NCBI GenBank assembly: GCA_051294905.1
Contig: CM119371.1
Span: forward strand, 9,302,001 to 9,366,000
Reading direction: 5' to 3'
Source of the DNA: Botryllus schlosseri
Lineage: Eukaryota
DNA length: 64,000 nt
Part shown: positions 465-58,200 of the stretch, piece after piece
How the letters are laid out: the number at the start of each line of letters is the position of its first letter
Numbering within the stretch: position 1 is the first letter of the stretch
Program-made: the position numbers and the translations under genes
The notes under the pieces: generated by a model
Told to the model about the DNA's origin: nothing
The model's database searches: none
What the model saw: the letters and a program-made list of their open reading frames with translations, nothing else

Positions 465-2491
465 TAGGCTGGGTAATTTCCTGCCAAATCAACAAGGGGG
501 TTGCACCAAGGTTGGAGAATTTATATGAGATTTGGCACACTGGCTGATGTAGCTTTAGACAGGCCAAATCCAAATTTTTTTTGAAAAATTCTGAAAAAGT
601 ACCAAGTTATGAGGCTTCAAAGTTTGCACATTTTCCTTGTCACACTTCATTGAACACTGTCAATAATTTTTTCAATGTCATAATTTTAAAGGTAAAAAGC
701 CGTCAGCGTGGCTGAAATTTGGGGACATGATGCTACTGCTATCCAAGAATTCTTAAATTGATGGCCCAAACATTTCAGAGTATGTTATCATAGAAAATAA
801 TGTCACCAAAGACTCCTACTGCATGTTTTGGTACCGAAAGTTTACACTCCCATAAATAAAAAGGGGAAAAATTTTAGAAGCCTAAATTCTGGAAAAATAA
901 TCTTGAATATATTGTCTTTCATTTAATATTGATTCAATTCATTAATTTCCAACTACACCAGTAAAAAACTTCAAATTAATAATTGGATTAGATAAACAAT
1001 GAACTAAAACTTTCAAGGCATTGTTCACTGTGATGTCACAATGCATGGACTGTTAAAGGTGGCTGAATGGAGTAAACTGGCCATGGGAATTAAAGTACAG
1101 TTGTGGCTGAGTAACTAGTCCAATTTTAGTGAGTGAGTGACTTTATTGTCTTAATTTCAACAGGTAAATAACTCATTTGAATGCATAGTTAGAAAGGTGA
1201 TGTCTCAGCTTGAAAATTGCAGTATTGGAAGAAACTTGGAAGAAATTTGCCACAAATTACATTTTACTGCAAAAACCGGGTTGATAACTGTGCCAAGCTT
1301 ATTTCATTGGCCAGCAAGAGAAGATATCTGCTATGTCCCATTTTCTCATATACTTCTTTGCATTGACATGCCTTCAACTTTAGTGGCAGGCAGTACAAAG
1401 TACATGAAGACAATATCCAAAAAATACAGAACATTTTCCATGGATTGGGCAATTGAGATGCTTTTGTACAAGTATGCTACGAGATCAATTTCATTTTCTT
1501 TTAGTTATGTGGTATATGATTAGAGAAACTGTTAATTCCAGACCAATTAGCATGGGAAATTTGGATTGAATTACATGTATTCATTTACAGTAGGCCTATA
1601 CAACCATTTTATGTGAATTTCGTTTGTTAAGCTTGTTTGGTTTGTGACGTCATAATTGGAAATGCTAAAAATTCACAGTAATCAGAAATTGTCCAATTTC
1701 CACCTGATAACGTGGAAATTAATTGTTCATTTTTTGTAGCAAGGTAGAATGCTCATTGAAAAGTCGACTTTTATCAAAATACACCAGCCAAGGCTGTGTC
1801 AACAAAAAGAGTTCGTGTATCATCTAAAAATAGTACATTGAACGCTCTCGTATTCGACATTTCGTGCTGGTGACGTCATATTTTGTGCTACGATTGTTGA
1901 TATACGCTGTTCTTTCGAATTCTCTACTAGTTGCTGACGATTACCCCTGACGAGTGTCAGCCGAAAATATTCGGGTTCATTTTAATATGAATATGCTATT
2001 CAATTGTATATTGAAGTTCTGTACCTCAAAGAAGCTGTTCATTGAAAACCATTAATTCATGAAAATGACCTTAAATTTTTTTTCCCCTTTTCAGATATAC
2101 CACATTCCATTCAAGCTGTAGGAAAATGAGAAGCTGCTGTTCACAAGCCGCACTAACATGATATAGACTTCAAATGGTTCATTCAGCTCACTTTATATGT
2201 TAGTCAGGCTCTTGAGGAGATTTCCACCAAATTTTAGGGTTATCAAACTATCATAGTAAGATATATTGCTGTTTCACTGCAGATTTGATGAAAATCACTG
2301 AAGCGTGACATGCAAAAAGCATGATTTTGTGAGGAGTGTAACTCGGTCATCAGATTGAATTTGAGAAAAAAATGTTGGATTCCCTCATGATAATGACAGA
2401 AGAATCAATGTGCCAAATTTCATAGCCATCCATTAACCTTGGTGCTCATCTGAAAATAAATTTGCTCATTTGGCAGGAAATTACCCGGCTA
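465..2491. mobile_element. TIR DNA-transposon derivative, superfamily uncertain (TAG..CTA ends)
   Basis: TIR gctgggtaatttcctgccaaat / atttggcaggaaattacccggc; absent from the sister copy at 11909-13136. Confidence 0.65.
1765..2040. repeat. Partial copy (loop plus one arm) of a hairpin-forming repeat family
   Basis: Shares ttacccctgacgagtgtcagccgaaaat with copies near 8545, 8965, 38790 and 43440. Confidence 0.8.
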
Positions 2492-4185: not shown

Positions 4186-7100
4186 GCCGGTAGCACGTGC
4201 TGATTCGGAAGCAAATACCGATGCCACTGATGATGTCTCCTTGACAAAGACCCCTACTTCTGATAAGTCTGCTTGGTCTGCCAGAATCAAAGCCGTATTC
4301 GATTATACTCTGTTTTCTCGACCAGTTTACGTCTTCGCTTTCGTATCCAGCATGACTTATTGGTCAGCCATGGTAAGCAGACAGGCTAATACTGAGAAGA
4401 CTGCAGGGTCAGATCATGTCAGGTGATCCAGAAAAATTTCAACTTATGCCCCCACCATCTCAGATTATCATGGAAATTGGTATGCTTAGAAAACTTTTCT
4501 TTCTGAATTCAGAAAAACAAATTTTATGAAAATCGGTCAAGTAAAACTGAAGATGTGGCCGTTCAAAAATTGCTGTTTTTTTGATCGCTTAAGCGGAAAA
4601 AATGTCAGAAATTTACATATGTAATTGAAATCTGCCATAATTCGATCAAATTAGGGTTGTTGAGGATGACACTTTCACAATTGTTCATTTACATCCTACT
4701 TGATACTTTGCCCCCTTCTTTGACACCTGGGGCTGCATAGTCTGACCTTTAACCCCATGATTCTGTTCGCGTCTTCGAAAATCGCTCATGCATGACGTCA
4801 TTTTTAATTGCAAATTTCTTTTGACCAAGAGGTGGTGTCATCAAGTGTAAGGTGTCATTGGAAAGCTCCTGATAAGGACTTTCAGAATCAACTATAACAT
4901 TCCTCGCTATAGAATCATTACATACCATAAGAGTGCCATGAAACTAACCTGCAAATAACATGTTTTAATTGAAAATCTCACCTTTCTCAACATGACACAA
5001 ACTCTGTAAAACAACTAATTTTACTTTTATTCTATATACAGTACCTATTGTACTACACACAAGGTAGTCAGTATAACTCAAAACAGATAATTGCCGACAT
5101 AAATTATGCTGGAAATAATTTTTGAAAATTGAAGAAAAATTTGCTACACAGTTTGAGGTGAACACACAGTACTTCAAAAATGAATCAGAATTCACAACTA
5201 ACGCAATGATAAGATGCAATATTTTATGTATTCTACACAATACATTTGGGCAACGATCAGCACTAAACAATGAAATGGACAATAACAACGAAAATCAATG
5301 TCAGCGGGTTGGTAGATTTCATATTATGGTGAGATATCAACTATGCACTTGCACATATCAGATATATATATTTATCTTTGATGATATCTCTTCCAAACTT
5401 CTTTGACTTTCAGTGTTGTTTATACACACTCTTTTTGATGCTAACTCGGTCTTCCAACGCCGGCATCATCCTATTGTTTTTGCTGTTTCAAAAAAACTTC
5501 ACAACTTTTTCAATTTTTTCATCTGAAAGCATCTTCCATTTTTCTGGTGGTGGCAAAGAATAACTCCAGTGTCTTGTTCTTGCTGTTTTGCATCTCTCAA
5601 CAACCTTCCACTTACTCCAAAAATTTCCGAGATTTTCATTCTTGACCAATTGTTAAGATTTGAATTTTTTGAGGTCTTGTTGAATTAGGGCTATTGTTTT
5701 TTCTTATATTTTTGATACGATATTTCAAAAGCAACTTCATTTTCATATTCATCTTTTCCCGTCCCTACAAATTCTTGAATCTCATCAACATGTAAAACCT
5801 TGGCAAGCTTTGTTTCAACATTGAGATTCAATTCTTGTATTTTTCTTCTTCCGTATCTAATTTTTCGATTTCCATAAAGAGAATGCAGCTTTACTGGAGA
5901 TTCACCAACAGCATGAAGACTCTGATATGTGCATTGTTAATATATCACCATAACATGAAGACTACAATGCATGAGATATTGCATCTTATCATTGCGATAG
6001 TTGTGAATTCTGATTAATTTTTGAAGTATTGTGTGTTCACCTCAAACTGTGAAGCAAATTTTCTCCATTATTTTAAAAATATCTCCCAAAATTATTTCCA
6101 GCATAATTTATGTCAGCAATTATCTGTTCTGAGTTATAGTGACTACCTTGTGTATAGTACAATAGGTACTGTATATAGAATAAAAGTAAAATTAGTTGTT
6201 TTACAGAGTTTGTGTAGTGTTAAGAAAGGTGAGATTTTCAATTGAAACATGTTATTTGCAGGTTAGTTTCATGGCACTCTTAGGATATGTAATGATTCTA
6301 TAGCAAGGAATGTTATAGTTGGTTCTGAAAGTCCTTATCAGGAGCTTTCCAATGACACCTTACACTTGATGACACCACCTCTTGGTCAAAAGAAATTTGC
6401 AATTAAAAATGACGTCACGCGTGAGCGATTTTCGAAGACATGCGCAGAATCAAAGGGTTAAAGGTCAGACTATGCAACCCCAGGAGTCAAAGTAGGGGGC
6501 AAAGTATCTAGTAGGATGTAAATGAACAATTGTGAAAGTGTCATCCTCAACAACCCTAATTTGATCGAATTATGGCAAATTTAAGTTACATGTTTATATT
6601 TCTGACAATTTTTCCGCCTGAGCGTTCACAAAAATGGCAATTTTTGGACGGTCATACCTTCGGATTTAGTTGACCTTTTTTGTTGAAATTTGGATTTCTG
6701 AAATCAGAAAACAAAGCTCTGTAAGCATGCCAATTTTCATGATGTTTCGAGATAGTTGGGATATGGCCTGGACCAAGTGATATGATATTACCCTGCAGCA
6801 ATGAGCTGATTAAAATCATGCGGATAAAGTATTCTGCCAGCCAATTCATGTTCTGTAAATCAATGCGTTCACTATAGCCTACTGTTCAAAGTAAGTGCCC
6901 GAATCACAAACCTATATGCCAGTGTTGGGATCAAGTCACTTCCTTTGAGTCACAATTCATATCGAGTCATTGCACATTTTGACTCAAGTCAAGTCGCTCG
7001 AGTTTTGAAGGTGACTCAAATCTAGTCGAGTCAAGTCTCAAAGTCCTGTCGAATTATCGGAGGCATGAGGCATGTTTCAAATCATTGCATTTTGCAAGAT

Positions 7101-10100
7101 GATTAAAGTCCAGAGTGTGTCGCTATCAATTTTGAACCTAGTAGCGAATATCAAGTTAATTATACCGTCAACGGGGTATTGCTTAGGTTCGTTATATATA
7201 TGCATACATGCATACCGGTATATGCATACTGATAAAGTACGTCGGTAACTGTCAGCCAAACTGATGATAGAATATGAAACCTCAGCAAGTTTAAACAAAT
7301 CGATAAGATGCAATCCACAATCCACCAATTGACCTATGCAATGCATCCGTGTGATACCATTTTAGGGTGCACCAATTGTTGACGAGTAATATGAAGTATA
7401 AACCAGGGTTATATTGACTCGAGTCACGATTATCTGATGACTTGACTTGACTCGAGTCATTTTCGCAAAATTCAGAAATGACTCGACTCGAGTCAATCTG
7501 TGTATTGACTCGACTTGGACTCGAGTCCTTGCGCATGACTCGAACCAAGTCATATGACTCGAGACTCATTGTAATTTCGAAGAATAGTTAAGTAACCACA
7601 GTACTGGGACTTCGTCTATTGCTACTGGACTTGAAAAAGCCACCAGAAACTGCTAAAAGTGAGAAAATTAGAGCTATAGGTATAAAGTGGGTTAAGAAGA
7701 CTTTAGCTGGAAACTGAGCAGTCAACACAATGACTTGGACTCGACCCTCTGCTAGCTGACTTGGACTGGGACTTGACTCGGTGGTGAATTGAAAATGACT
7801 CGACTTGACTCGAGTCAAAACTATAAAAGTGAGATTGAGTTGTGACCTGGAGCCTTGTGACTTGGTTACAACCCTGGTATAAACTGTATCGTTCTGATCT
7901 AAATCATACAAGTGTTTCGCTAAGACAGTGGTTCTTAAACTCTTTAAACCGTGACCATGATCTGAGTTTGAATGGCATCTCGCGACCCAAGAGTCACACA
8001 CCAAAAAGAATACATTTTTAATATTATTATGCTACGTTTTTACGGGCATATGTGGCATAGATAACTTCTCTTCGTTTGCAATCAATTTGTTTGGGACATT
8101 CCGATGGAGACCTATTTACACCGTGTTTGTATTCTTGACGCTTTTGACTTCCAGGTGGGAACTACCTTCCTTATTATTCCACTCGGGATGGAATCGATGG
8201 GTTTGGATCGGACCGCCGCGTCAATTTTACTCGCATGCCAATCAGCCGGAGACCTTGTCGGAAGGGTGATGGGCGGATTGATCGGTGACTGCAGGGGGGT
8301 GAATAAGTAAGTCAAACATATCTTGGTTTTCGTTGTAGGTCGGCCCTTACTAACCTTTGTTCGACGCGACCGAGTGACACTGACTCCAAACAATCGCTTT
8401 GCAAAAATACAGCCCAATTTACAAGCTGACTAACTTACCAACTAAAAGCTATATCGTAGTCGAATTCTATTCACTAGTCTTGTAATCGGGTTTCCGATGA
8501 AACATAGTATATTCAATTATTCATGTTGAAAAAAAAACACGATTATTTTCGGCTGACACTCGTCAGGGGTAATCGTCAGCAACTAGTACAGTAATGGAAA
8601 GAACATTGCACATCAACAATCGTATCACAAAATATGACAATCACAGGCATGAAATTTCGAATATAATCGGGGCAGATAGAGGGCTTATTCTTAATAATGT
8701 ACTATTTTTAGATGATACACAAAGTCCGTCTGTAAGCACGGGCTGGGTTGGCGTATTTTGATAAAAGTCAACTCCAAGGTACCTATATATAAGTGTGAAC
8801 GGCCTTTGCCGACGACACGGAATCTGTCGTCCAGATAATTTTTCGCGTGAACAAGAATATCCATCAAATGTTTGCTGATGGCAGTATTTCATTGTGGTGA
8901 CGTCATATTTTGCAATACGGTTATTGATTTACGATGTTCTTTCCAAGTCTCTACTAGTTGCTGACGATTACCCCTGACGAGTGTCAGCCGATAATATTCG
9001 GGTTCATTTCAATATGAATGTTCTATTCAATTTCGATTGAAGTTCTGAAAACCTTCTTGGAGGTACAGAACTTCAATTTACAGTTGGATAGCATACTCAT
9101 ATTGAAATGAATCCGAATTGAAGTTCTGCACCTCAAAAAAGCTCTTCAATACTCAAAGCGTACCTCAATAGACGTTGTGTTTGATTCATGCAAAATAAAT
9201 AGCGTATCACGTTACCACGAATAGCGTAACTTCTACTTGAGTACCAACGACAACACTATTTTGATCTCCTCTTTGACCATCTCCAGTAATACTCGTTGTC
9301 TTGCAGCTCCATTCTGCTGGGCGTTACGACCACACTGGGTACGGTTTCAACGTACGTCATTACATTCTCCGGGAATTACGCGTTACAATGCGTGCTGGCG
9401 TTCGTTCTGGGTGTGACCTATGCGCCGTTTGGCAGCTTGTTTGTCGGTTTGTACACGGAGGTGTTCGGTCCGGAGAAGATGACGCATGCTTTAAGTTACG
9501 AGGGATTTGTAAGCACCATACTCACTCTGCCCATGACTTATCTTCTGGGTAAGTTTATTGTGCTCTGTTTGAGTGTATCAATCAGGGTTGTAACCAAGTC
9601 ACAAACATCCAGGGTTGCAATGACTCGAGTCACGATTTTCTGATGACTCGAATTGACTCGAGTCATTTTCTCAAAATACGGAAATGACTCAACTCGAGTC
9701 AATTTTTGTATTGACTCGACTTGGGATCGAGTCATTGCGAATGACTCGAACCAAGTCATATAACTCGAGACTCAAACGGCCAAGACCTACATTTCGCTGT
9801 AATTTCGAAGAATAGTAAAGTAACCACACCATTTGGATTTCGTTTATTGATACTGGTACTTGACAATGCGACCAGAAACTGCTAAAAGTGAGGAAAACCA
9901 GTGTATTATAAATGCGAACCATTCGATATCACCAAAGAGAGCTTTAAAAAGTGGGTTTAACAAAAATTTTACTGGAAGCTGAGCAGTCAACACAATGACT
10001 TTGACTCGGACTCGAGTCATAATACCATGACTCGGACGGGACCTGCTGCTCGCTGACTTGGACTTGGACTTCACTCGATGGTGAATTGAAAATGACTCGA

Positions 10101-37076: not shown

Positions 37077-40000
37077 ATGGAATGTTTTGGCAATGAACCA
37101 GTGCAGCCGGACAGTATAGATGTGTTGGTGATTTTGGCCGGTAACATATTGACCTCTTTCTGCTCTCTTGGCATTTATCGCTGCCTGGGAACATTCAACG
37201 GCGGTATCAAGACTGAATTCCACGTCAACAACTACGAGATTTCGCTAGTACAAGGGCTGTTCACGGGATTCATGTCCTTCGGAGGTATGAAAGCATTTTG
37301 TGCATGTATTCTCGTTGTGGTACGGCCAGAGGCGGTAAAATTTGTCCGCGTTATTATCAGTGGCGGCTCGTGACAATATCGGGTGGTGGGGCAGGGGGTG
37401 TACGCAATTTCAATTGTCTAAATGATGTCACAATAGTCTATTCCGACGTGAAAATGTGACTTCGTGTTGGTCACACACAGTTTGTATGGGGTAGACATTA
37501 GGCATGAAAACAAGGTATTTCAAATTATTCGTAAGAAAATATGAAGTACAGTAGTGCATACCTGCATATTTTAACGTTTGTATCAGTAGGCCTATTGCGC
37601 GCGGCGTGATTTCATAGTTTCAAAATGTTCAATGACTAGTTGATTGAATACCCCGAATGAGAGCGTTGAGAATCGTGAGCACATCAAACGCATCGAGCTT
37701 AATTACAGCAGCAAAGTTGATAGAGAGCGATTTTTCAACTACAGGGATTTTCAAAGTTCACCAGTGGTTACTATACTTCGGAAAAAGATGTATTGGAATA
37801 TAAACAAGTGAACTGGAGCCGAGCAATCAGCAATGTAGACCATAGGGTAATATCGAGAAAACGTTTGCAGTCCCAGACCACATGCTTCGGATCACGATAC
37901 CCAATTTCGGTCGAACTAGAGACACTGTCCCCTGGCGCCAGCAGTGTAAAAGTGCATAACAAGGCGTCCTTATCCTTGGATATACGTCAGCCTTTCATTT
38001 TTTATCGAAATACGTTGGGAAAGGGTATGAGTGCGCTTTCCTTTCGTGTGCGATTAGATTAATGGACCATTTCCAGGCTGGTAAGGGCCGAGTCTTGCGT
38101 AAAACACCGAATTTAGCGTAAAATTTATTGAGGAATAGGCTAATCAAGTGATCAGATGTTAGCCGTCATCGAAAACGAGCTAGCTATATCGCGCTTGACA
38201 TGGCGTTATCAGTAGGGCAATTTTTTTTTACCTAAAAACGGAAGATTTTGACCTAAAATATCTAAGTTTTGACTTTTTTTTGACCTAAAAAACTGAAATT
38301 TGACCAAATTTTGATCTTAGGTATACAAATTAGGTGTTTTCACACATAATGTCAAAATTGTACTACTTATCTTCATTTCTACTTGGAACTGTCTGTCCTT
38401 ACAAAGTAGATTGGCCTGAAAAACGTTTTAATCACAAAAACGAGCAAATTTTTTACATGAAAAAACAATTGAATAGCACATTCACACTGAAATGAACCGG
38501 AACACCCCCGGCCGACACCCGCCAGGGGCAACTGCCAGCAACCAGTAGAGAACCGGAAAGAACACGGCACATCAACAATCGCATCACAAAATATGACGTC
38601 ATTTGTGTGACTTGGAGTCGACTTTTATCAAAATACACCAACCAAAACTCTGTCAACAAAAGGAGTTCGTCTACCACCTAAAAATAGTACATTAAACGCT
38701 CTCTCTTTCATGCTGGTGACGTCATATTTTGCGACACGACCGCCGACACACCATGCTTCTTCCAACTCTCCACCAGCCGCCGACGACCACCCCCGACGAG
38801 TGCCAGCCGAAAACACTCGGGCCCACCTCAATATGAATACACTATTCAATTGTATATTGAAGTTCTGTACCTCCAAGAAGCCCATGAAAAAACTAGTATT
38901 TTAACGAAATCTGGCCCTATGAAGAATTCCAGTAGTTACATTACGTATTATGGTGGAAATAATTAAAATTTGTTGTAGTACAACGAACGAAAGACAGCTT
39001 ACTTTCCTACATTCTCGGGTAGAAAGTGTTTGTCCTTACTAAGTAGCTTGCCAAGAATGGAGAAAGAACGTTAAACAGCAGCGGGTGTTGGCTGACAACA
39101 CTGAAGTTGTGTGCACACTGCTGGTGACACACCGTGTTGCTTCATTCTGACAATGTTGTCTATATCACAATTTTTCAGCTTGCGCTTCTTGATATAAGAA
39201 TCATGCAACGTCCAAGCAGTCTTGCTTCAGTTAGTATATTGCGGTACGTTGACCATAAAACCATGTCACTATTTGTTTCATTTGATCGTTTATGATTCAC
39301 AATGAGCAGACGATGGGTCGTTTTACAACGGTAGGCCTATAAAGTAGGTTACAAGCTCTAAAATAGCAAGTGATAAATTCACCGACAGCGCAAAATCTAC
39401 GATACAAACAAAATTCAGAGGTCAGAAAATGTTTGACTTTGTAAACAATTTTGACAAATTTTTGACAAATTTTGTCCTAACGTTACAATTTTGACCTAAT
39501 TTTCATTTTTTTTTGACATGTCAAAAAAAATCGCCCTCGTTATCAGCAATATAGGCTTGAAGGCCTGAATTTCACTATGAAATCTACATTGGAGAATATA
39601 TAATAAGTAGGGCAATTTTTTTTGACCTAAAAAACGGAAGATTTTGACCTAAAAAATCTAAATTTTGACCTTTTTTGACCTAAAAAAACTGAAATTTGAC
39701 CAAATTTTGACCTCACGTATGCAAATTAGGTGTTTCCGCATATAATGTTAAAATTGTACTACTTATCTTCATTTCTGGTTGGAACTGTCTGTCCTTACAA
39801 AGTAGATTGGCCTGAAAAAACGTTTTTTGCTCAAAAACTGACAGATTTTTACATGAAAAACTAGTATTTTAACGAAATCTGGCCCTATGAAGAATTCTAG
39901 TAGTTACATTACGTATTCTAGTGGAAATAATTAAAATTTGTTGTAGTACAACGAAAGATCCTTTCCTACATTCTCGGGTAGAAAGTGTCTGTCCTTACCA

Positions 40001-43000
40001 CGTAGCTTGCCAAGAACGGAGAAAGAAGGTTCAACAGCAGCATTTGTTGGCTGACAACACTCAAGTTGTGTGCACACTGCTGGTGACAAACCGTGTTGCT
40101 TCATTCTGACAATGTTGTCTATATCACAATTTTTCAGCTTGCGCTTCTTGATATAAGAACCATGCAATGTCCAAGCAGTCTTGCTTCAGCTAGGATATTG
40201 CGGTACGTTGACCATAAAACCATGTCACTATTAGTTTCATTTGACCATTATGATTCACAATGAGCAGACGATGGTCCGTTTACAACGGTAGGCCTATAAA
40301 GTAGGCTACAAGCTGTAAAATATCAAATGATAAGTTCACCGACAGCGCAAAATCTACGATACAAACGAAATGCAGAGGTCAAATAATGTTTGACTTTGTA
40401 AACAATTTTGACAAATTTTGACCTAACGCTACAATTTTGACCTAATTTTGACTTTTTTTGACATGTCAAAAAAAAATTGCCCTAATAATAAGGTAAATAT
40501 TTGAAAGCAAACCGAGAATCTTAAACTGTTTCATGAGATCATCATCTCATCCCGTATCTCAGTATGAAACACAGTTAAAATTTGCAGATATCGACATCGG
40601 CTTTTGCTTGAAATCCGCAACGCCGTAGTTTGCGCATGTGTCAGATTTGCGTACATCTCTACCATGCTCGACCTCGATAACGAAATTACTAAACATTGAG
40701 TATCAACCGTACTTACCACAGCGTTCGGTACTGAAATCTAGACATGCCTTCCAAAAGCTCAAGACCGATCTTGGTATAGAGCAGTGGTTCCCCAATGGTG
40801 GGAAATTCAATGGTTTCTGGTGGGGAATAGACGCATTTGTTCAAAATCATATACAGGACAGTATATACACATTCACGGACACACATGCGCAATTACCGTT
40901 ACCAGTTAACTGCTCTGGAATGTAAGTATCAAAAATTATATTGCGTGTGGTTCACAAAATCCCATTTTAGTTCTGGATGGCTAATCATGGCGTCACAAAC
41001 GAACCCAACACGACTAGTTTAACGTGAAATTTCACTCTCGCGAAATTTTGAGCGTTACTGGGTATCGGTTCAAAATACGTTTTATGTTGCAGTTATACGC
41101 GATTGTCTCGCATACTGGTGTGGTCTTGTGTCTCGTGCAGTAAAACCAGCAAAGTATCTGCTCTAGTGTGATGACAAAGTGCTGGGTAGTAGGGAAAAGG
41201 ATCGTAACTGCAGCACCCCCCCCCCCCCAGTAGGGGGCGAGCTCGAAGGGGCCCAAATGGATTTCATGAATTAACATAAATTAAAGTATTTTTTTCTAAT
41301 TTATGCCACTTTTTCAAAATATTTTCGCGCTGTTGCGCGATATGATATTGCCGAATATCTGATTATTAGGTAGGCCTACTCTTCCCCCACGAAAATACGT
41401 AGAATATATAGAAATGAAGAATTCGGCGTCGGCCATTGCTGTGTCACGACGCACCAAGTCATACGAAGTTATAGGACATGTAAGATGCAATTCCGAGAAG
41501 TGTGCCAGAGCGATCAGCAGCGAAAAGACCTTGGCCGAGAAGGAATGCCCTTGTGGTGACCCAAAACTTCGATATAAATACAATATACATATATGTTTAT
41601 TTGGTTGAATGGCTGGCGCCGAATGTTCCTGTTCTGGCGATCTGAACCCAACAGGACAAATGCCATCCCACGGGGAGAAATTATTTGCCAGTAAAGCAAT
41701 AACAATTTCAAATCGTGTATGCCTTTTACTTTTGGCGATTTCCATATCTTTTGACATAGCAGATATAGGAGGTCACGAAATAGCATAATGTAACGGAAGT
41801 CTATATACCAACGGGTCCGCACGAAGATGTTCAATTCTTATTTAAGGGCTCTACCTTTTCCAGCACGCCTCACTCAGCTCTACCGGTAAACCTGATTACG
41901 TGAGCAGAGAGGGGATTAAAAATTGACAGCAAAATATATGCGATTCCCGATCAGATTGGGCGATTCAAACACGAATTATATATAATTTTCGCGCTTCCGC
42001 CTGTTTAGTCGAAATAAGGCGACGCACTAAATAGTAGACCCAATGTAGCTATAAGTTGCAGGGAAAACGCGTACAAGCTCAGCGGGGCTGAGGAGGTTCT
42101 GGGGGCCCAAGACCAACGTTTTTTTCCGGGGCTGACAAAGTGCTGTTACGGTCCTGGTGGGGAATGAAGGCTCGGAATAAATCTGAAGCGGGGAATGAAG
42201 ACAGGTTGGGAACCACTGGTATAAAGCATCGGTAAAATCGATCAATACCAGTATTGCGTAAAATATGTAAGTGATAAATGGCGAGTCAGCTCTCGCTCGA
42301 CTTGTGAAACGAAATTATCACCCATATAATTGAGTGATGAACTTAAAAACTGGGTACGGCGTTCGATATTAACATTAAGACTAGCTATGCGAAATGTCAT
42401 GACCAATCTCGGTATCGAACACCGTCAAAATCAATGGAGACCAATACCCGCTTTTGAGTGAAATCTGTTTGCGATACGTGACGGATCAGCACACAGTCTT
42501 TAGAAACGAAACTACTACCCTACACTTTATGTAGCAACCCTGAAACTTGGAGCAGTGTTAAATACCACCTTCACAACATAACACACACCAAGTTTCAAGA
42601 GTTATCATGGAGCGAAACATCTACAAAATCGACCTATACCAGCAAAGGTCACTCTACGCATATGACGTAACCGAGTTAAGATATAGATACGATTGTTACA
42701 TCACAACTTAGGGGAAACCAGGTTAGGTTGCCCCACTCGCTCGGTAATTTTATGAATAGGAGAGAGTAAATCACCGTTTCTTTATTGTGCGCGGCTTTGA
42801 GAGAACAGACAGTAAACGCTTGTTATGGGCGCTACCGGGGCAAGCCCCGGCTAGGTGTTCACAAAGCGAAAACACAAAAGGATTCGATTTCCGCCGATAC
42901 AAGCGCATTTACAAGCGAAAGAACAAAAAGAATGCGGGTTTCGCTGTGATTTAGGTATCTGTTGATTGCTGTGAGTCTATAAATGGTGAATAATTGTTAT

Positions 43001-46000
43001 TGAACAGAATTTTAGGTGGGGCAATGCCCCAGTTTCCCTATAGGACGAGCCGCAACTGGTTATTATGGTCCGAGCGGAAGTGGAACCGGTTCCGTAAATT
43101 TCTACACAATTACTTTTCGAAGTAGCAGTTTCCAGTATATATCCAACATATTTCGACCGCAGTAGAAAATGAAAGGTATGAAAATTAAGCTAGTCATAGT
43201 TGCAAAATATAAATTTGGTCGAGTGGTTGCATACGTCTAGCAGCTACACATATCAGTGGCTACTTGCAAAATTCCAACACGCATCTTCCGAACCCGTGCA
43301 AATTCACCACTTGTGTACCATCTAAAAACAGTACATTGAACGCTCTCTTAGTCGAAATCTCATGCTGGTGATGATACATTTTGTGATACGATTGTTGATA
43401 TACAATGTTCTTTCCAATTCTGTACTAGTTGCTGACGATTACCCCTGACGAGTCTCAGCCGAAAATAATCGGGTTCGTATGTCAATTGCTACTTGAGTAG
43501 CGCAAGTTTGGCGCATGCTTTGTGAGTAAAAAGTAGTAGTGCTCTGTCACTGGCCACAGTTGGGCAGGGTTTCACGGACTCTGGTCACTTTTGGTTACTC
43601 TACTTGACACGAGTTATTTTCGAAATGTAAAATGTAAATGTATATAATATTAATAAAATACTTAATTTATTTTTATATATATATAAATATCATTATAATG
43701 ATAGATAATATTGTAAATGTAAAAGAACGCGATCGACCAAAGTCCTTCTGTGCATTGACTCGACTTTTACTCGAGTCATTGCTCATGGCTGTGCAAAGCA
43801 TGTGACTTGGAACATTCTATATCTGACTTGATTCAAGTCTGGTGTACCAAGACCGATACTTAAAAATAGGCCAATAAACTGTCATTTATCCAACAGAACT
43901 GAGAAAAATGAGTATATGATGAATATGAGGCCTTCGATATCACCCAAGACTTGAGTCTTATAAAAAAGCGAGGTAACCGGTGAACAGTAGGAGTCTTACT
44001 CGGACTCTGGCCTCACCACCATGACTCTGATTTAAGCCTTTGCTATCCGACTTGGACTCGGATTTGACTCGGTGCTGAGTTTAACATTGACTTCAACTTG
44101 ATCCGAGTTTGAACTACAAAAGTAAGATTGACTCGTGACTCGGTACCTTGTGACTTGGTTACGGCATTGAATCTGGGCCCGGCAAAACTTTCCAGGTATA
44201 ACTTATATTTTAACAGCGCCGGCGGTCGTATTGGTGAAATGGATTTCCTACCGAAAACTTGGATTGATTTCGAGTGCCCTGTTCTCTTTGAGCTTGTTAG
44301 CAGCGTCTTTTAGCCCGAATTTTGCGATGTACGCGACTTTAGGCGGAGCCACAGCAGGTGAGTAATGAAGATTTCTTGCACGGAAACATCTTGCAAATAT
44401 CGATCTTTCGAACACTCCGACTTCAGTACGGCCTTAGGAAGTCGCTTGGATTCGTTAAGAATTTTTCAAACTGTCGCTTTAAATCGGATATTGCATCTGT
44501 TGGTGCGAGATATCATTATTTATGGAAACGTGTGTACTCCGCAACCGATTCGGACAATGCTCAGACTTGTTTGGTCGCTATTCCAACGAACTTCCAAAAC
44601 CGAATTGCGCCAATAAGACCAATAAACGAATATAAGTTGCATCTGAGAACGTTAATTTCTACCAATACCTAATTATACGTACAGTTACGAGTTAAGGAAC
44701 TCTTGATATACCTTGAAAATATCCAGGTCATCACCAACGACGTCTCGACATGCACTTATCTCGCCACCCTTTACAATACAATCCACATACAATTTACCCA
44801 AATGCAGACAAATTAGTCGCATTAGCTACTTCGATAAAACTATAGGTAACTTCGTTAATTTTTATTTGCTTGTCGAAAATTTCTACATATTTGCAAGTAA
44901 ATTTAGCGATTCCCAAGAGATGCCTAAACGAGATCAAGTCTGCGGAGGCCTACTCGAGTAGCCCAATTAGTTTCAGAATGTAGATCTGGTCGAGCGGTCC
45001 CATCACTACACTCTAAATCGAAAGCATCGATTTAGACACAAAATTGTGCATTCAAAGATGCAATATGGGACAAACACATAAAGTCGACCCAAATCTTTCG
45101 CCGAAGTGGTGTCATAATATGTGCAAGTCCACACTTCATCAGATAAAGTTACGAAATATGTGCTTCTGCTCTCATCTTATCATCTGTCGCCGGCTTTGAT
45201 CACTATGAAAGAGTTTACGTATACATTTTAATAGTCCGGTAAGTCGCCGCACGAGTTGTGAGATCAGTAAGATTGAGAGGGATTGTGAGGTCGACGATGG
45301 AAACGCTGCTGAAATGTAATCGTAATGTCACTGGTAAATGACCAGATCATCCAGGGTAAGGTACGGTACACTCGTGTGTCGATCATGACGTCATCGGTAA
45401 ACCCAATGACCCTGGGGTCCGTTTGCTCCCGCTGGGTTATTTGCAGGGGAGGAATTAAGCTGCAAGATATAGATTCTCAAATGATGCAGCCTTTCTATAA
45501 TAGATGTTGAACGGTAATAACGACTCTCGCGTAAGTAATGCGTGCTTTTAGCCCCGTTTACATATAGCTCAGAAGCAATGTTACCTCTAATTTTGACGAG
45601 TCTGCAGCAAGCGCTCACCTATTCACTGCGCAGTCCCTTGGACAACAGTGCGTAACCACTAAAAAAAAGTCATCTCTTCGGATTTTTTGTGCACAACTGA
45701 TAATTTATGTGAGCAGAGGCTGCGTCAGCTCAAATCAATTGCAGACATGCGTACCTAAAAGGGCACATTGCTCAGGAGCCATGAAGTGGACTGCTGTTTC
45801 ATCAATGTCGCTCCATTATTTTAGAGTGTCGCTTTCTTGCATTTACTAGATTTTGTGATCGTTTCTCTTTTCATTTTATTTACCAACCAAACTGGCAGAA
45901 GAAATTGATCATTTCCATTATATTGCATTTCCTCATTATTGATCATTGATATATCAGCAGTATAGCAATGAAGAAATCAATCAATCAATCATTGTCATCA

Positions 46001-55200: not shown

Positions 55201-58200
55201 AACGTCAAAATTCGACACTTGCGACCTATTTTACGACATGCTGTCGTAATATAGAGTTCATGGTGTGCTTTGGGCTTGGCGTGCGTCACAATCCTTAAAG
55301 AGCTGTACGAACCTCTTTCAAAACGGCTCAAGGAACATTCATACGCGAAATCCGGAAGACAACGTATAATCGAAGACCGTTATGTTTAGACAGCACAATT
55401 TATCGACATTTGGCAGTAGGATAGCGACTCGCACTTCTTTCAAATGCACGTTACAATAACACCTTTCCGTCGTCACAGACGGGTGCGAGAAATGATTAGT
55501 GATTTCGAAGGGTTGCCAACGGGGGAAGGGGGGAAAGGTCTAAGAATCACTGGTGGCTGGTGTAAATCATTGTTTTAAATCCTACATGTCTGCCTCCATA
55601 CGTCCCTACATAACCAGGTCGTACTCTATTCATGCTTGTTCAAATTCTTCAGGTATAATTTGATTAGCCTATAGTGTTTCGATGTATCGCGTGGTTTAGG
55701 ATTTTGAAGCAAGTTGTGTTTTCGTGTGCCATCATTTGGGTGGGAATACTCCCTTTGTAGCTAAAGAGTGTCGCCATCAACATTGATTTATTCCAATTCC
55801 ATGTTTACAGACCAGTGGCAGTCGTGAATGAGGCGCCAACCCAAGGAGAGGACGTGGCGGAGACCGCGTTTGGACCGGAGACTTCTGCGGGTCAGCAGAT
55901 AGCCACGTTACAGCCGCACGCTCAAACATACGAGAACGAGGTCATCAAAGCACCAATTGTTCAGCAAGACAAATTCGGGGACGTGATAGATTCAACTGTT
56001 CAATCAGATGAGGAGAAAAGCGTGGTCGTTCAAACAGGTTCGGGAGAGTCGGCTGGGATCCAAAATACACCTGATCAAGCCACGCCACAGCCGGACTCTT
56101 CAGCATACGAGAATGAGTTCATCAAAGCACCAGTTGTTCAGCAAGAGGAATTCGGTGACGTGATAGATTCAACCGTTCAATCAGATGAGGAGAAAAGTGT
56201 GGTCGTTCAAGCAGATTCGGGAGAGTCGGCTGGGATCCAAAATTCACCTGGTCAAGTCACGCCACAGCCGGACGCTTTAACATACGAGAATGAGTTCATC
56301 AAAGCACCAGTTGTTCAGCAAGAGGAATTCGGTGACGTGATAGATTCAACCGTTCAATCAGATGAGGAGAAAAGTGTGGTCGTTCAAGCAGATTCGGGAG
56401 AGTCGGCTGGGATCCAAAATTCACCTGGTCAAGTCACGCCACAGCCGGACGCTTTAACATACGAGAATGAGTTCATCAAAGCACAAGGATTTCAGCAAGG
56501 GGAAGTCGGAGACGTGATAGATTCAACTGTTCAACCAGATGAGGAGAAAAGCGTGGTCGTTCAAGCAGATTCGGGAGAGTCTGCTGGGATCCAAAATTCA
56601 CCTGGTCAAGTCACGCCACAGCCGGACGCTTTAACATACGAGAATGAGTTCATCGAAGCACCAGTTGCCCAGCAAGAGGAAGTCGGCGACGTGATAGATT
56701 CAACTGTCCAGTCAGATCAGAAGAAAAGCGTGGTAGTTCAAGCAGATTCGGGACAGCCGGCTGGGATCCAAAATACACCTGATCAAATGTCGTCGTTGAA
56801 CCGACTCAAGGCTCGACTCAAATCTGTCTTCGACTATACCCTATGCTGTCAACCGATATACATCCTTGCATTCATATCCAGCATGTTGTACTGGTCGGCC
56901 TGGGTGAGCAAGCGTACACTATGAGAATCAATGGGTGGAGAATAGCTGTATTTAACGTATTTTATTTCCGTCGTGACCGTGGGGCGTAAATCCGTCACAC
57001 GGCACTTGCATGTACCGAATTTTGGTTTCGTACCCATTCCCATGAATCAAATACATCATCCCGTTAGGGGATTTATTCCGGGGGGCTGTGGGTTCTGTTA
57101 ACGTGAGGGTTACCATAAGTCCTCATTAGGAGGATTAGCCTCCCTTTTCCCGTTCTTGAAAATGTTATCCGAGGACTCCTATATCACCTCCTTTTTGACC
57201 ATTCGTTCGCCAAATTGTACAGCTGAGATAATGGACAGATTCGAGTGAACATCGGCATAAATGACGCAAAATAGCAAACACGGACGTTCGAGCAGAAATT
57301 TCGTAACAGCGTGTAAATCGGTATTCGAACGAAAGTGATGACCTTTTTTAATATTTTAGTCGAAAACTTGCCCAACTGAGCACTGATCATAGTGATCATG
57401 ATAAAGAAATGACCGGATTTATAATTTTACAAATAGTTTTTCAATTCCAGCTTGCAATATTTAACGTTATTGAGCTGTAATCTGACTGCGGTTGGTTGCG
57501 CTGCGTATTCGCTAAATATATAGTATATTTTCCGACGGGTCTGATCTCGTTCGTGTATATCACTTCGACGTAACATGCAACAAGCCCGTCTTGCAGACAC
57601 AGAGACCACGACATGGCGAGGTTTTTCTTTATGGAACTATGTAAATATTTTCGAATTTATTCGATTTCATAACACGTACGTATATTGATGCGATAAGAGT
57701 ATAACGGCGTGGCAACTCCTATCAAGTTACAGTCTAATTACAGTTACAATCAGGGTTGTAGTGACTCGAATCATGACTCGACTCAAGTCCGACTCAAGTC
57801 ACGATTTTCTGATGACTCGACTTGATTCGGGTCATTGCACATGACTCGAACCAAGTCACGTGACTATAGACTCAGACAGCCAAGACCGACATTTCATTGT
57901 AATTTCGAATAATAGTAAAGCAACCGAACTATTGATATTTAATCTATTGGTACTTTTGAAACTTGAAAATACAACCAGAAACAGCTAAAAACTGAGGAAA
58001 ATTATAATATCATTAATGCGAACCATTCGATATCACCGAACAGAGGTATAAAATGGCTTTAGCAATACTTAAACTGGAAAATGAGCAGTCAACACAATGA
58101 CTCGGATTCGACCCTCTGCTCGCTGACTCGGACTCGGACTTGACTCGGTGGTGAATTGAAAATGACTCGACTTGGCTCAAGACAAAATTGTCCAAGTGAG

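What the first reader, a model, noticed from the sequence alone, without database searches (positions are those of the whole stretch)
38467..38882. Genomic fossil of an ADAR hyper-edited hairpin RNA written back into DNA
Seen: this copy of a hairpin repeat family differs from sister copies (1871-2035, 8510-8640, 8895-9050, 43370-43480) mostly by T>C on the + strand, in both arms. By eye there are about 18-20 changes in the left arm (aatattttcggctgacactcgtc > aacacccccggccgacacccgcc) and about 25 in the right arm (gattgttgatatac > gaccgccgacacac; tagttgctgacgattacccctg > cagccgccgacgaccacccccg). The loop (~38600-38715) has only a few such changes, and the unpaired overhang (~38850-38880) has essentially none. 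Same-strand changes in both arms break DNA palindromy, so this cannot be the ancestral state, and CpG decay or APOBEC would give C>T/G>A instead. The insert has an 11-bp TSD, and the empty site survives in the sister hAT at ~39852. Established: ADAR converts clusters of A to I (read as G) only in dsRNA and disfavours a 5' G neighbour; several right-arm Ts followed by C are spared, though this is less clear in the left arm. Inference: a minus-sense hairpin transcript of a MITE-like element was hyper-edited and then retroposed in trans, probably by a LINE RT, making RNA editing heritable. No poly(A) tail is visible.
Basis: partly seen in the sequence, partly recalled or inferred. Interest (0 to 1): 0.9.

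Follow-up and report, generated by a model that had tools for sequence, protein, structure and literature searches.

The report
RNA-editing scar in a DNA hairpin repeat
One copy of a hairpin-forming repeat carries dozens of one-directional letter changes, found only where its RNA would pair with itself, as if an enzyme-edited RNA had been copied back into the chromosome without any new insertion.

Summary
Against a consensus of 22 sibling copies, the window copy has 49 T>C changes among the 86 T in its two 134-nt arms. It has 0 among 44 T in the loop and tail, and 0 A>G among 86 arm A. Siblings have 0-2 T>C each. The edited sequence also appears in contigs of other sequencing runs.

The changes keep the minus-sense RNA hairpin folded through G-U pairs but wreck the plus-sense RNA and both DNA hairpins. 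The genome encodes ADAR-type genes.

The "11-bp TSD" junctions are shared by 29 unedited copies. The hairpin was therefore already inside a hAT DNA transposon, which spread with 8-bp TSDs.

A second, independently edited copy exists (L034, chromosome C6). It is a shorter hairpin, and its unedited zone follows its own tip. A genome-wide pattern search finds only these two.

Best reading (about 0.5): an ADAR-edited antisense hairpin transcript was copied back into the resident DNA copy by RNA- or cDNA-templated replacement. How it was written back is inferred, not shown.

The parts
38213..39538 (+). Non-autonomous hAT DNA transposon (1326 bp) that carries the hairpin. Its TIRs begin TAGGGCAATTTTTTTT.
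   Evidence: The extent comes from the coverage of sibling copies. The termini were read. 21 of 23 aligned composites have perfect 8-bp TSDs and 2 have 7 of 8.
38205..38212 (.). Left copy of the hAT target-site duplication, GTTATCAG.
39539..39546 (.). Right copy of the hAT target-site duplication, GTTATCAG.
38456..38466 (.). Left copy of the 11-bp repeat catgaaaaaac that flanks the nested hairpin unit. It is ancestral and shared by the unedited siblings.
38883..38893 (.). Right copy of the same 11-bp repeat.
38467..38882 (+). Nested hairpin unit (416 bp). The plus strand is the family's retroposition sense, with the constant tail at the 3' end.
38468..38601 (-). Left arm. 22 of 36 T are C, and all edits lie within 38477-38582. 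Read on the minus sense these are A>G.
38602..38716 (.). Loop (115 nt). 0 of 34 T changed to C; there are 2 other changes.
38717..38850 (-). Right arm. 27 of 50 T are C, and all edits lie within 38732-38840.
   Evidence: contigs of runs X1 and X3
38851..38882 (+). Unpaired tail, which is the conserved 3' end of the retroposon family. 0 of 10 T changed.
39608..40484 (+). Neighbouring hAT copy of the same family without the hairpin, showing the unfilled site near 39846-39855. Its TSD is ATAATAAG.

Best explanation
A resident DNA copy of a near-perfect hairpin repeat (134-nt arms, 115-nt loop) was transcribed on the minus strand, and the RNA folded on itself. ADAR deaminated about 57% of the arm adenosines, or 72% within the edited zone. 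The edited sequence was then copied back into the chromosome, replacing the resident hairpin.

The likely route is RNA-templated or cDNA-mediated repair or gene conversion of a break-prone palindrome. No new insertion was made.

**Shown:** the mutation pattern, its restriction to the paired region, its strand, its presence in several data sets, a second independent case, and ADAR-type genes in the genome.

**Inferred:** that ADAR made the changes, that they were made on RNA, and the whole write-back step.
For: - **One change type, one strand, stems only.** 49 T>C among 86 arm T. 0 of 44 T in loop and tail (p=1.7e-12). 0 A>G among 86 arm A. Siblings have 0-2 T>C each.
- **Every edit sits opposite an A.** Consensus arms form 133 of 134 Watson-Crick pairs. 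The window copy forms 82 of 134, with 49 C-A mismatches.
- **Only the minus-sense RNA still folds.** It folds at -212.6 kcal/mol through G-U pairs, against -96 for the plus sense. The consensus folds at -258 and -264.
- **The duplex ended at the arm.** No edits occur in the tail. No edits lie within 10 nt of the open end or 15-19 nt of the loop. This fits an intramolecular hairpin. It does not fit a sense-antisense duplex or a hybrid with trans RNAs, either of which would cover the loop or tail.
- **Neighbour preferences.** In the edited zone, sites with 5' A/U are edited 33 of 38 times and sites with 5' C/G 16 of 30 times (p=0.003). Sites with 5' G are edited 7 of 16 times, others 42 of 52 (p=0.009). 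Sites with 3' G are edited 8 of 9 times.
- **A second case, L034.** It is a stand-alone, loop-less mini-hairpin with 12+13 T>C on the same sense and few other changes. It keeps the family end CTCTTC, which the hAT-nested unit lacks, so it is a separate lineage.
- **The edit-free zone follows each copy's own structure.** Seven T sites lie next to L034's tip. None of the 7 is edited in L034, while 6 of 7 are edited in the window copy, where they lie deep in the stem (p=0.005).
- **No new insertion.** The junctions are shared with 29 unedited copies, and the carrier has a hAT 8-bp TSD.
- **ADAR-type genes are present.** The deaminase domain is found at 4 loci, two of them with a dsRNA-binding domain just upstream.
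- **Reverse transcription acts on this family.** Copies of 153-892 bp share one 3' end and have TSDs of 8-14 bp.
- **The sequence is real.** It is seen in contigs of runs X1, X3 and X14.
- **Transcript-templated break repair is in print.** PMC12065846 and PMC5854605 (search listing and start of abstract only).
Against: - The write-back step has no direct evidence here.
- No RNA-seq test of editing in this family could be run.
- In L034 the 5' G rule fails: 8 of 8 such sites are edited. Pooled over both copies, 5' G depletion is not significant (15 of 24 versus 59 of 77, p=0.19).
- 72-76% editing within the zone is higher than the 50-60% ceiling I recall for long duplexes in vitro.
- The two copies share 20 edited sites (9 window-only, 5 L034-only, 14 neither; p=0.007). 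I read this as site preference, but a link between the two events is not excluded.
- Only two such copies were found in the 495-Mb assembly.
- L034 could not be checked in reads.
- The hint that the unit is younger than its flanks (5 background changes against 12.9 expected, p=0.01) disappears when only the right flank is used (7.8 expected, p=0.21).
Confidence: 0.5

Rival explanations
1. The edited hairpin RNA was retroposed in trans by a LINE reverse transcriptase into this hAT copy, creating the 11-bp TSD.
For: The family does behave like a LINE-dependent retroposon. An 11-bp repeat flanks the unit.
Against: - The same junctions and repeat flank the 29 other, unedited copies, so the insertion predates the editing.
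- The edited sense is opposite to the sense that carries the family's 3' tail.
Confidence: 0.03
2. Born edited. A read-through transcript of a whole hAT composite was edited in its hairpin and reverse-transcribed. The double-stranded cDNA was then used by hAT transposase as a donor, giving a new copy with a normal 8-bp TSD.
For: - The copy has intact TIRs and a perfect 8-bp TSD.
- There is no close sister copy; the best flank identity is 95%.
- Reverse transcription is active on this family.
Against: - This route requires a full-length cDNA that includes both TIRs; nothing here tests whether one was made.
- It cannot explain L034, which is not inside a hAT.
Confidence: 0.1
3. DNA was edited directly. 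ADAR deaminated dA in the minus DNA strand while each arm was paired with the opposite arm of a minus-sense RNA, forming an RNA:DNA hybrid. No reverse transcription was needed.
For: - ADARs deaminate dA in DNA/RNA hybrids with their usual sequence preferences (PMC5389660, abstract read).
- Such pairing would also spare the loop and tail.
Against: - The RNA would have to invade duplex DNA instead of folding on itself.
- 49 dI lesions would have to escape repair.
- An ordinary R-loop, or a hybrid with plus-sense family RNAs, would cover the loop or tail. 0 of 44 T there are changed, including 14 unedited T between 38841 and 38872.
Confidence: 0.12
4. An RNA-independent DNA process. Either an error-prone polymerase puts G opposite T, or an unknown deaminase acts on an extruded DNA hairpin.
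For: - The 5' A/T preference also fits the WA motif that I recall for polymerase eta.
- Long palindromes are known trouble spots for replication (recalled).
Against: - A polymerase tract would be continuous, yet the loop between the arms has 0 of 34 T changed.
- Spontaneous or single-strand-specific deamination would hit loops, not stems.
- I know of no enzyme that deaminates A in duplex DNA.
Confidence: 0.12
5. The feature is not a mutation event. It is either an ancestral C-rich state or subfamily, CpG/APOBEC-type decay in the other copies, or an assembly artefact.
For: None found.
Against: - The arms of this copy are not complementary (82 of 134 pairs), whereas the consensus arms are (133 of 134).
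- No closer relative exists.
- The direction of change is T>C, not C>T.
- The sequence is seen in contigs of three runs from three studies.
Confidence: 0.02

Closest known systems
ADAR-hypermutated retroelements and retroviruses fixed as DNA. Knisbacher and Levanon 2015, Ann N Y Acad Sci 1341:115: I saw only its citation in the reference list of PMC5850729. The A-to-G hypermutated avian proviruses are recalled.
   Same: Clusters of A>G on one strand in genomic DNA, explained by ADAR editing of an RNA that was later reverse-transcribed.
   Different: In those cases the RNA is the element's own replication intermediate and the result is a new insertion. Here the copy sits at a pre-existing site inside a DNA transposon, there is no new TSD, and the edited sense is antisense to the family's retroposition sense.
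Transcript-RNA-templated double-strand-break repair (PMC12065846, PMC5854605; search listing and start of abstract seen).
   Same: Sequence flows from RNA into a resident chromosomal locus without an insertion.
   Different: It has been shown with engineered reporters in yeast and human cells. I know of no natural germline footprint. No break or repair intermediate is seen here.
ADAR deamination of dA in DNA/RNA hybrids (PMC5389660, abstract read).
   Same: The same enzyme, the same chemistry, and a heritable A>G if the lesion is replicated.
   Different: It needs a hybrid, not a hairpin RNA. The sparing of loop and tail fits only an unusual arm-to-opposite-arm hybrid.
Deaminase-plus-reverse-transcriptase model of somatic hypermutation (PMC5704389, PMC11817618; search listing and start of abstract seen).
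   Same: It proposes A-to-I editing of a transcript followed by copying back into the same gene.
   Different: It concerns somatic immunoglobulin or cancer loci with scattered WA-site changes, and I recall it as disputed. Here the event is germline, restricted to a stem, and saturating.
Repeat-induced point mutation (RIP) of fungi (recalled).
   Same: Dense one-type transitions that disable a repeated sequence.
   Different: RIP is C>T on DNA, acts on both strands, and is triggered by duplication rather than by RNA pairing.

Membership tests
ADAR hyper-editing footprint | Nearly all changes are A>G on one strand. | tested here: met
   In the arms, 49 T>C against 0 A>G and 2 other changes. In L034, 25 T>C and few others.
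ADAR hyper-editing footprint | Changes are confined to the double-stranded part of the RNA. | tested here: met
   0 of 44 T changed in loop and tail, against 49 of 86 in the arms. The edit-free zone moves with the hairpin tip in L034.
ADAR hyper-editing footprint | 5' neighbour preference U, A > C > G, and 3' G favoured. | tested here: inconclusive
   Window copy: 5' G sites edited 7 of 16 versus 42 of 52 for others (p=0.009), and 3' G sites 8 of 9. L034: 5' G sites edited 8 of 8. Pooled 5' G depletion p=0.19; pooled 5' A/U versus C/G p=0.006.
ADAR hyper-editing footprint | The organism has ADAR (deaminase domain plus dsRNA-binding domain). | tested here: met
   A_deamin is found at 4 loci. 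A dsrm domain lies in the same open frame upstream at C10:21717227 and just upstream at C13:1903842.
ADAR hyper-editing footprint | Hyper-edited RNA reads of the same family and sense. | not tested
   Reads were laid on confirming the DNA. At most about 2 RNA reads lay on the edited left arm.
Fresh LINE-mediated retroposition of the edited RNA | A TSD and junctions unique to this copy. | tested here: not met
   The same junctions occur in the 29 other copies.
Fresh LINE-mediated retroposition of the edited RNA | The edited strand equals the sense of the retroposed RNA (3' tail at the RNA 3' end). | tested here: not met
   The tail is at the plus-strand 3' end, while the edits read A>G on the minus sense.
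hAT non-autonomous DNA transposon (the carrier) | 8-bp TSD and short terminal inverted repeats. | tested here: met
   21 of 23 composites have perfect 8-bp TSDs and 2 have 7 of 8. The ends read TAGGGC...GCCCTA.
Non-LTR retroposon (the hairpin family) | Constant 3' end, variable or truncated 5' end, TSDs of variable length. | tested here: met
   Stand-alone copies of 153-892 bp share the end ...CTCCAAGAAGCTCTTC. Exact flanking repeats of 8-14 bp were found for 21 of the 34 right ends not nested in a hAT; 13 had none of 8 bp or more. No partner LINE was identified.
RNA- or cDNA-templated replacement of a resident locus | RNA-derived sequence at a pre-existing site, with no new junctions. | tested here: met
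RNA- or cDNA-templated replacement of a resident locus | A defined conversion tract, or an unedited allele at the same site. | tested here: inconclusive
   The unit has 5 background changes against 12.9 expected from both flanks (p=0.01), but 7.8 expected from the right flank alone (p=0.21). No population data were available.

The most novel reading that the evidence does not exclude
This animal's germline can overwrite a resident DNA sequence with the sequence of its own transcript, and ADAR edits act as a watermark proving that the template was RNA.

The pathway recurs: two independent loci show it. It hits perfect palindromes, and it permanently disarms them. The DNA hairpin energy falls from -166 to -44/-70 kcal/mol, and the plus-sense RNA hairpin is lost.

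If so, RNA editing would be heritable outside the retroelement life cycle.
Probability: 0.45. Interest if true: 0.9.

Novelty: new variant of a known kind. Interest (0 to 1): 0.8.

Why it matters
ADAR changes are made only on paired RNA (or, in vitro, on RNA:DNA hybrids). A stem-restricted A>G cluster in chromosomal DNA is therefore rare physical evidence that sequence moved from RNA back to DNA.

Such footprints are known for retroelements, whose life cycle includes reverse transcription. Here the site is a resident copy inside a DNA transposon. There are no new junctions, and the edits lie on the antisense of the family's retroposition sense.

If the reading holds, three things follow:
- It is a natural germline example of transcript-templated rewriting, which so far has been shown with engineered reporters.
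- It suggests a way for genomes to neutralise long palindromes and dsRNA sources for good.
- It makes the question testable, because one can scan genomes for one-type mismatches between the arms of inverted repeats.

Tried and rejected
- **Letter allowance.** After that, only a 471-bp stretch (L091) was fetched.
- **BLAST with the edited arms.** This is a poor detector of other edited copies. Only L034 stood out. The left-arm search did not even list L034.
- **Inverted-repeat scan.** I scanned the DNA in hand (window plus loci; 56 arm pairs) for one-type arm mismatches. Only the window hairpin is a clear outlier (49 versus 2). One pair in L044 shows 18 versus 4 (uncorrected p=0.004) and would not survive correction for 56 tests.
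- **Sequencing runs.** No RNA holder was listed.
- **RNA reads.** At 95% likeness, reads on the unit come mostly from other family copies. The library looks unstranded, so they say nothing about the transcript's sense.
- **Close sister copy.** I looked for one to date the event. The best flank identity is 95%.
- **Gene context.** No exon was found near 38 kb. The only domain hit is a RASSF8-10 RA domain at 55761-56924 on the plus strand.
- **Explanations rejected.**
  - Reverse-transcriptase errors during snap-back synthesis: errors in the first arm would be copied as complementary changes, and none are seen.
  - ADAR acting on the cDNA:RNA intermediate of retroposition: this would hit the tail and give complementary arms.
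  - Sense-antisense dsRNA: this would cover the loop and tail.
- **Literature.** Five full-text searches found no report of an ADAR footprint in a resident DNA-transposon hairpin. That is not proof that none exists. The Knisbacher and Levanon review is not held.
- **Earlier notes of this scan.** Nothing relevant was found.
Full report
**What is there.**
The window belongs to a 495-Mb animal genome. An ORF at 55761-56924 matches the RASSF8-10 RA domain, which I recall as an animal family.

The flagged stretch, 38467-38882, is a 416-bp unit. It consists of a left arm (38468-38601), a loop (38602-38716), a right arm (38717-38850) and an unpaired tail (38851-38882).

A search of the genome with this unit scored 40 of 2947 first-look candidates. 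It returned 29 other full-length copies at 83-87% identity and none closer.

I aligned the whole carrier element from 23 loci and took the majority of the 22 siblings as reference.

| Region | T>C | Other changes |
|---|---|---|
| Left arm | 22 of 36 T | 1 C>T |
| Right arm | 27 of 50 T | 1 C>T |
| Loop | 0 of 34 T | 2 |
| Tail | 0 of 10 T | 0 |

- Not one of the 86 arm A became G. Fisher p is 1.7e-12 for arms against loop plus tail, and 2e-19 for T>C against A>G.
- The 22 siblings have 0-2 T>C each in the arms (sum 11 T>C, 13 A>G).
- The carrier sequence around the hairpin in the window copy shows an ordinary mix: 3 T>C, 3 A>G, 4 C>T, 8 G>A and 16 transversions.
- Consensus arms form 133 of 134 Watson-Crick pairs. 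In the window copy 82 remain, and 49 positions are C-A mismatches.
- As RNA, the consensus folds at -258 (plus sense) and -264 (minus sense) kcal/mol. The window copy folds at -96 in the plus sense but -212.6 in the minus sense, because every change turns an A-U pair into G-U there.
- As DNA, the hairpin energy falls from -166 to -44 (plus strand) and -70 (minus strand).

**It is real DNA.**
- Contigs of run X1 match 38707-38793 and 38791-38856 without a difference. Their depths of 13.7 and 11.6 are close to the 16.2 of the unique flank. X1 hardly covers the left arm (depth 1.2).
- Run X3, from another study, has contigs over 38450-38576 (3 differences) and 38710-38813 (5 differences).
- X3 reads the consensus C at 38533 and 38758, the two places where the window has C>T. 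So those two changes are later and polymorphic.
- X3 also reads T at 38777, one of the 49 edited sites.
- X14 has depth on both arms. The record does not say whether X3 and X14 are DNA or RNA. X14 contains a 131-kb contig.

**The insertion story does not hold.**
- All 29 other copies have the same flanks on both sides (...tttttacatgaaaaaac | unit | catgaaaaaactagtatttt...). One has a later deletion in the flank and one a small insertion near the left end.
- The 11-bp repeat therefore marks a single old insertion into a larger element that then multiplied.
- That larger element spans 38213-39538. It has ends TAGGGC...GCCCT(A/C) and the 8-bp duplication GTTATCAG.
- 21 of 23 aligned copies have perfect 8-bp duplications and 2 have 7 of 8, each duplication different. 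This is a non-autonomous hAT DNA transposon.
- A second copy without the hairpin lies next to it at 39608-40484.
- The window copy has no close sister; the best flank identity is 95%.

**What the hairpin family is.**
- Stand-alone copies share one end (...CTCCAAGAAGCTCTTC) and range from 153 to 892 bp.
- They start at many different points. Some have only the right arm; some are short loop-less hairpins.
- For 21 of the 34 right ends not nested in a hAT, I found exact flanking repeats of 8-14 bp. For 13 I found none of 8 bp or more.
- Examples are the truncated copy at window 1761-2036 (TSD CATTGAAAA) and L091 (11-bp TSD).
- That is the behaviour of a LINE-dependent retroposon read in the plus sense.
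- The inverted 5' duplications could arise by snap-back or twin priming; this is inference.
- So reverse transcriptase does act on this family. But the edits lie on the opposite sense.

**A second, independent case.**
- L034 (G000:C6:18420120-18420320, minus strand) is a stand-alone mini-hairpin. It consists of unit positions 2-82 joined to 304-416 plus the CTCTTC end, and it has no loop.
- It carries 12 and 13 T>C in its two arms, on the same sense, and few other changes.
- It retains the family end that the hAT-nested unit lacks, so neither copy derives from the other.
- Of 48 arm T sites covered by both copies, 20 are edited in both, 9 only in the window copy, 5 only in L034, and 14 in neither (p=0.007).
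- The clearest contrast concerns the 7 T sites within about 19 nt of L034's tip. None is edited in L034. In the window copy, where the same sequence lies deep in a longer stem, 6 of 7 are edited (p=0.005).
- The pattern therefore follows each copy's own fold, as an enzyme reading structure would.
- An exhaustive pattern search for the 26-nt edited core allowed up to 3 mismatches; the unedited form differs at 8 positions. It finds only these two places in the assembly.
- Because the arms are palindromic, that search sees either sense of editing.

**Does it look like ADAR?**
- The genome has the ADAR-type deaminase domain at four loci, two of them with a dsRNA-binding domain just upstream.
- Edits avoid the outer 10 nt and the loop-proximal 15-19 nt of the stem.
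- Within the edited zone, 49 of 68 T are changed in the window copy and 25 of 33 in L034.
- In the window copy the minus-sense 5' neighbour matters. The edited fractions are A 16 of 18, U 17 of 20, C 9 of 14 and G 7 of 16 (G against the rest, p=0.009). Sites with 3' G are edited 8 of 9 times.
- In L034 all 8 sites with a 5' G are edited. Pooled, the G depletion is not significant (p=0.19), while A/U against C/G is (48 of 57 versus 26 of 44, p=0.006).
- The motif test is therefore only partly met. The main evidence is the restriction to one strand, the restriction to the stem, and the dependence on each copy's structure.

**How it most likely happened.**
- Sense-antisense RNA, ordinary R-loops and hybrids with plus-sense family RNAs would all cover the loop or the tail. 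Yet 14 T between 38841 and 38872 are untouched.
- A polymerase-error tract would not skip the loop.
- Single-strand deamination would prefer the loop.
- An ancestral C-rich state is excluded, because the arms would not pair.
- What remains is a minus-sense transcript folded on itself, edited, and then used to rewrite the resident DNA.
- For the rewriting step I can only point to what is known. Transcript-templated break repair exists (PMC12065846, PMC5854605; listing and abstract start). Long palindromes break easily (recalled). This family's RNA meets reverse transcriptase.
- Three variants are not excluded:
  - A cDNA of the whole composite was used as a hAT donor. This does not explain L034.
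  - ADAR acted on the DNA strand of an arm-to-opposite-arm RNA:DNA hybrid (PMC5389660, abstract).
  - An unknown DNA process was responsible.
- One weak hint favours replacement by a template. The unit has 5 background changes where the flanks predict 12.9 (p=0.01). This rests on an oddly diverged left flank and vanishes with the right flank alone (7.8 expected, p=0.21).

**Verdict.**
- The retroposition part is rejected.
- The finding becomes more interesting rather than less. It is an RNA-editing watermark at a resident, non-retroelement site, seen twice.

Noticed in passing
window 39608-40484: A second hAT copy of the same family, without the hairpin and with TSD ATAATAAG, lies only about 70 bp downstream of the edited composite, in the same orientation.
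   Followed up: partly
window 38213-38466: The left part of the edited hAT copy has 19 private substitutions, where 22 siblings average 5.3 (range 1-12). The right part is ordinary (15 against a mean of 14.4). This is unexplained. It may reflect alignment trouble in A/T runs or a recombinant origin.
   Followed up: partly
window 1761-2036; loci L035, L037, L049, L058, L060, L066, L084, L087, L091: The hairpin family behaves like a non-LTR retroposon. It has a constant 3' end ...CTCCAAGAAGCTCTTC, lengths of 153-892 bp, variable 5' ends, and TSDs of 8-14 bp. Many copies carry an inverted 5' duplication of varying length, including loop-less mini-hairpins. This suggests snap-back or twin priming at birth. 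No partner LINE was identified.
   Followed up: partly
window 8510-9130: A complex family copy with a different loop of about 250 nt. At its right end, an inverted second tail plus the start of an arm (about 9045-9110) is followed by another tail.
   Followed up: no
L044 884-1005 with 2347-2468: Two family arms 1.3 kb apart show 18 A>G-type against 4 T>C-type mismatches, plus 14 others. Uncorrected p=0.004 among 56 pairs, so this may be chance.
   Followed up: no
window 4450-5235 with 5963-6760: A long inverted repeat of about 800 bp at 88.7% identity with balanced mismatch types (20 versus 25). It serves as an unedited control hairpin in the same window.
   Followed up: no
window 55761-56924 (+): A 387-aa open frame with a RASSF8-10 RA domain (E=5e-8). 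It is the only recognisable coding piece found in the window.
   Followed up: no
window 38533, 38758, 38777: Run X3 reads C, C and T where the window has T, T and C. The edited allele is therefore polymorphic between samples. 38533 looks like later C>T decay at a CpG.
   Followed up: partly
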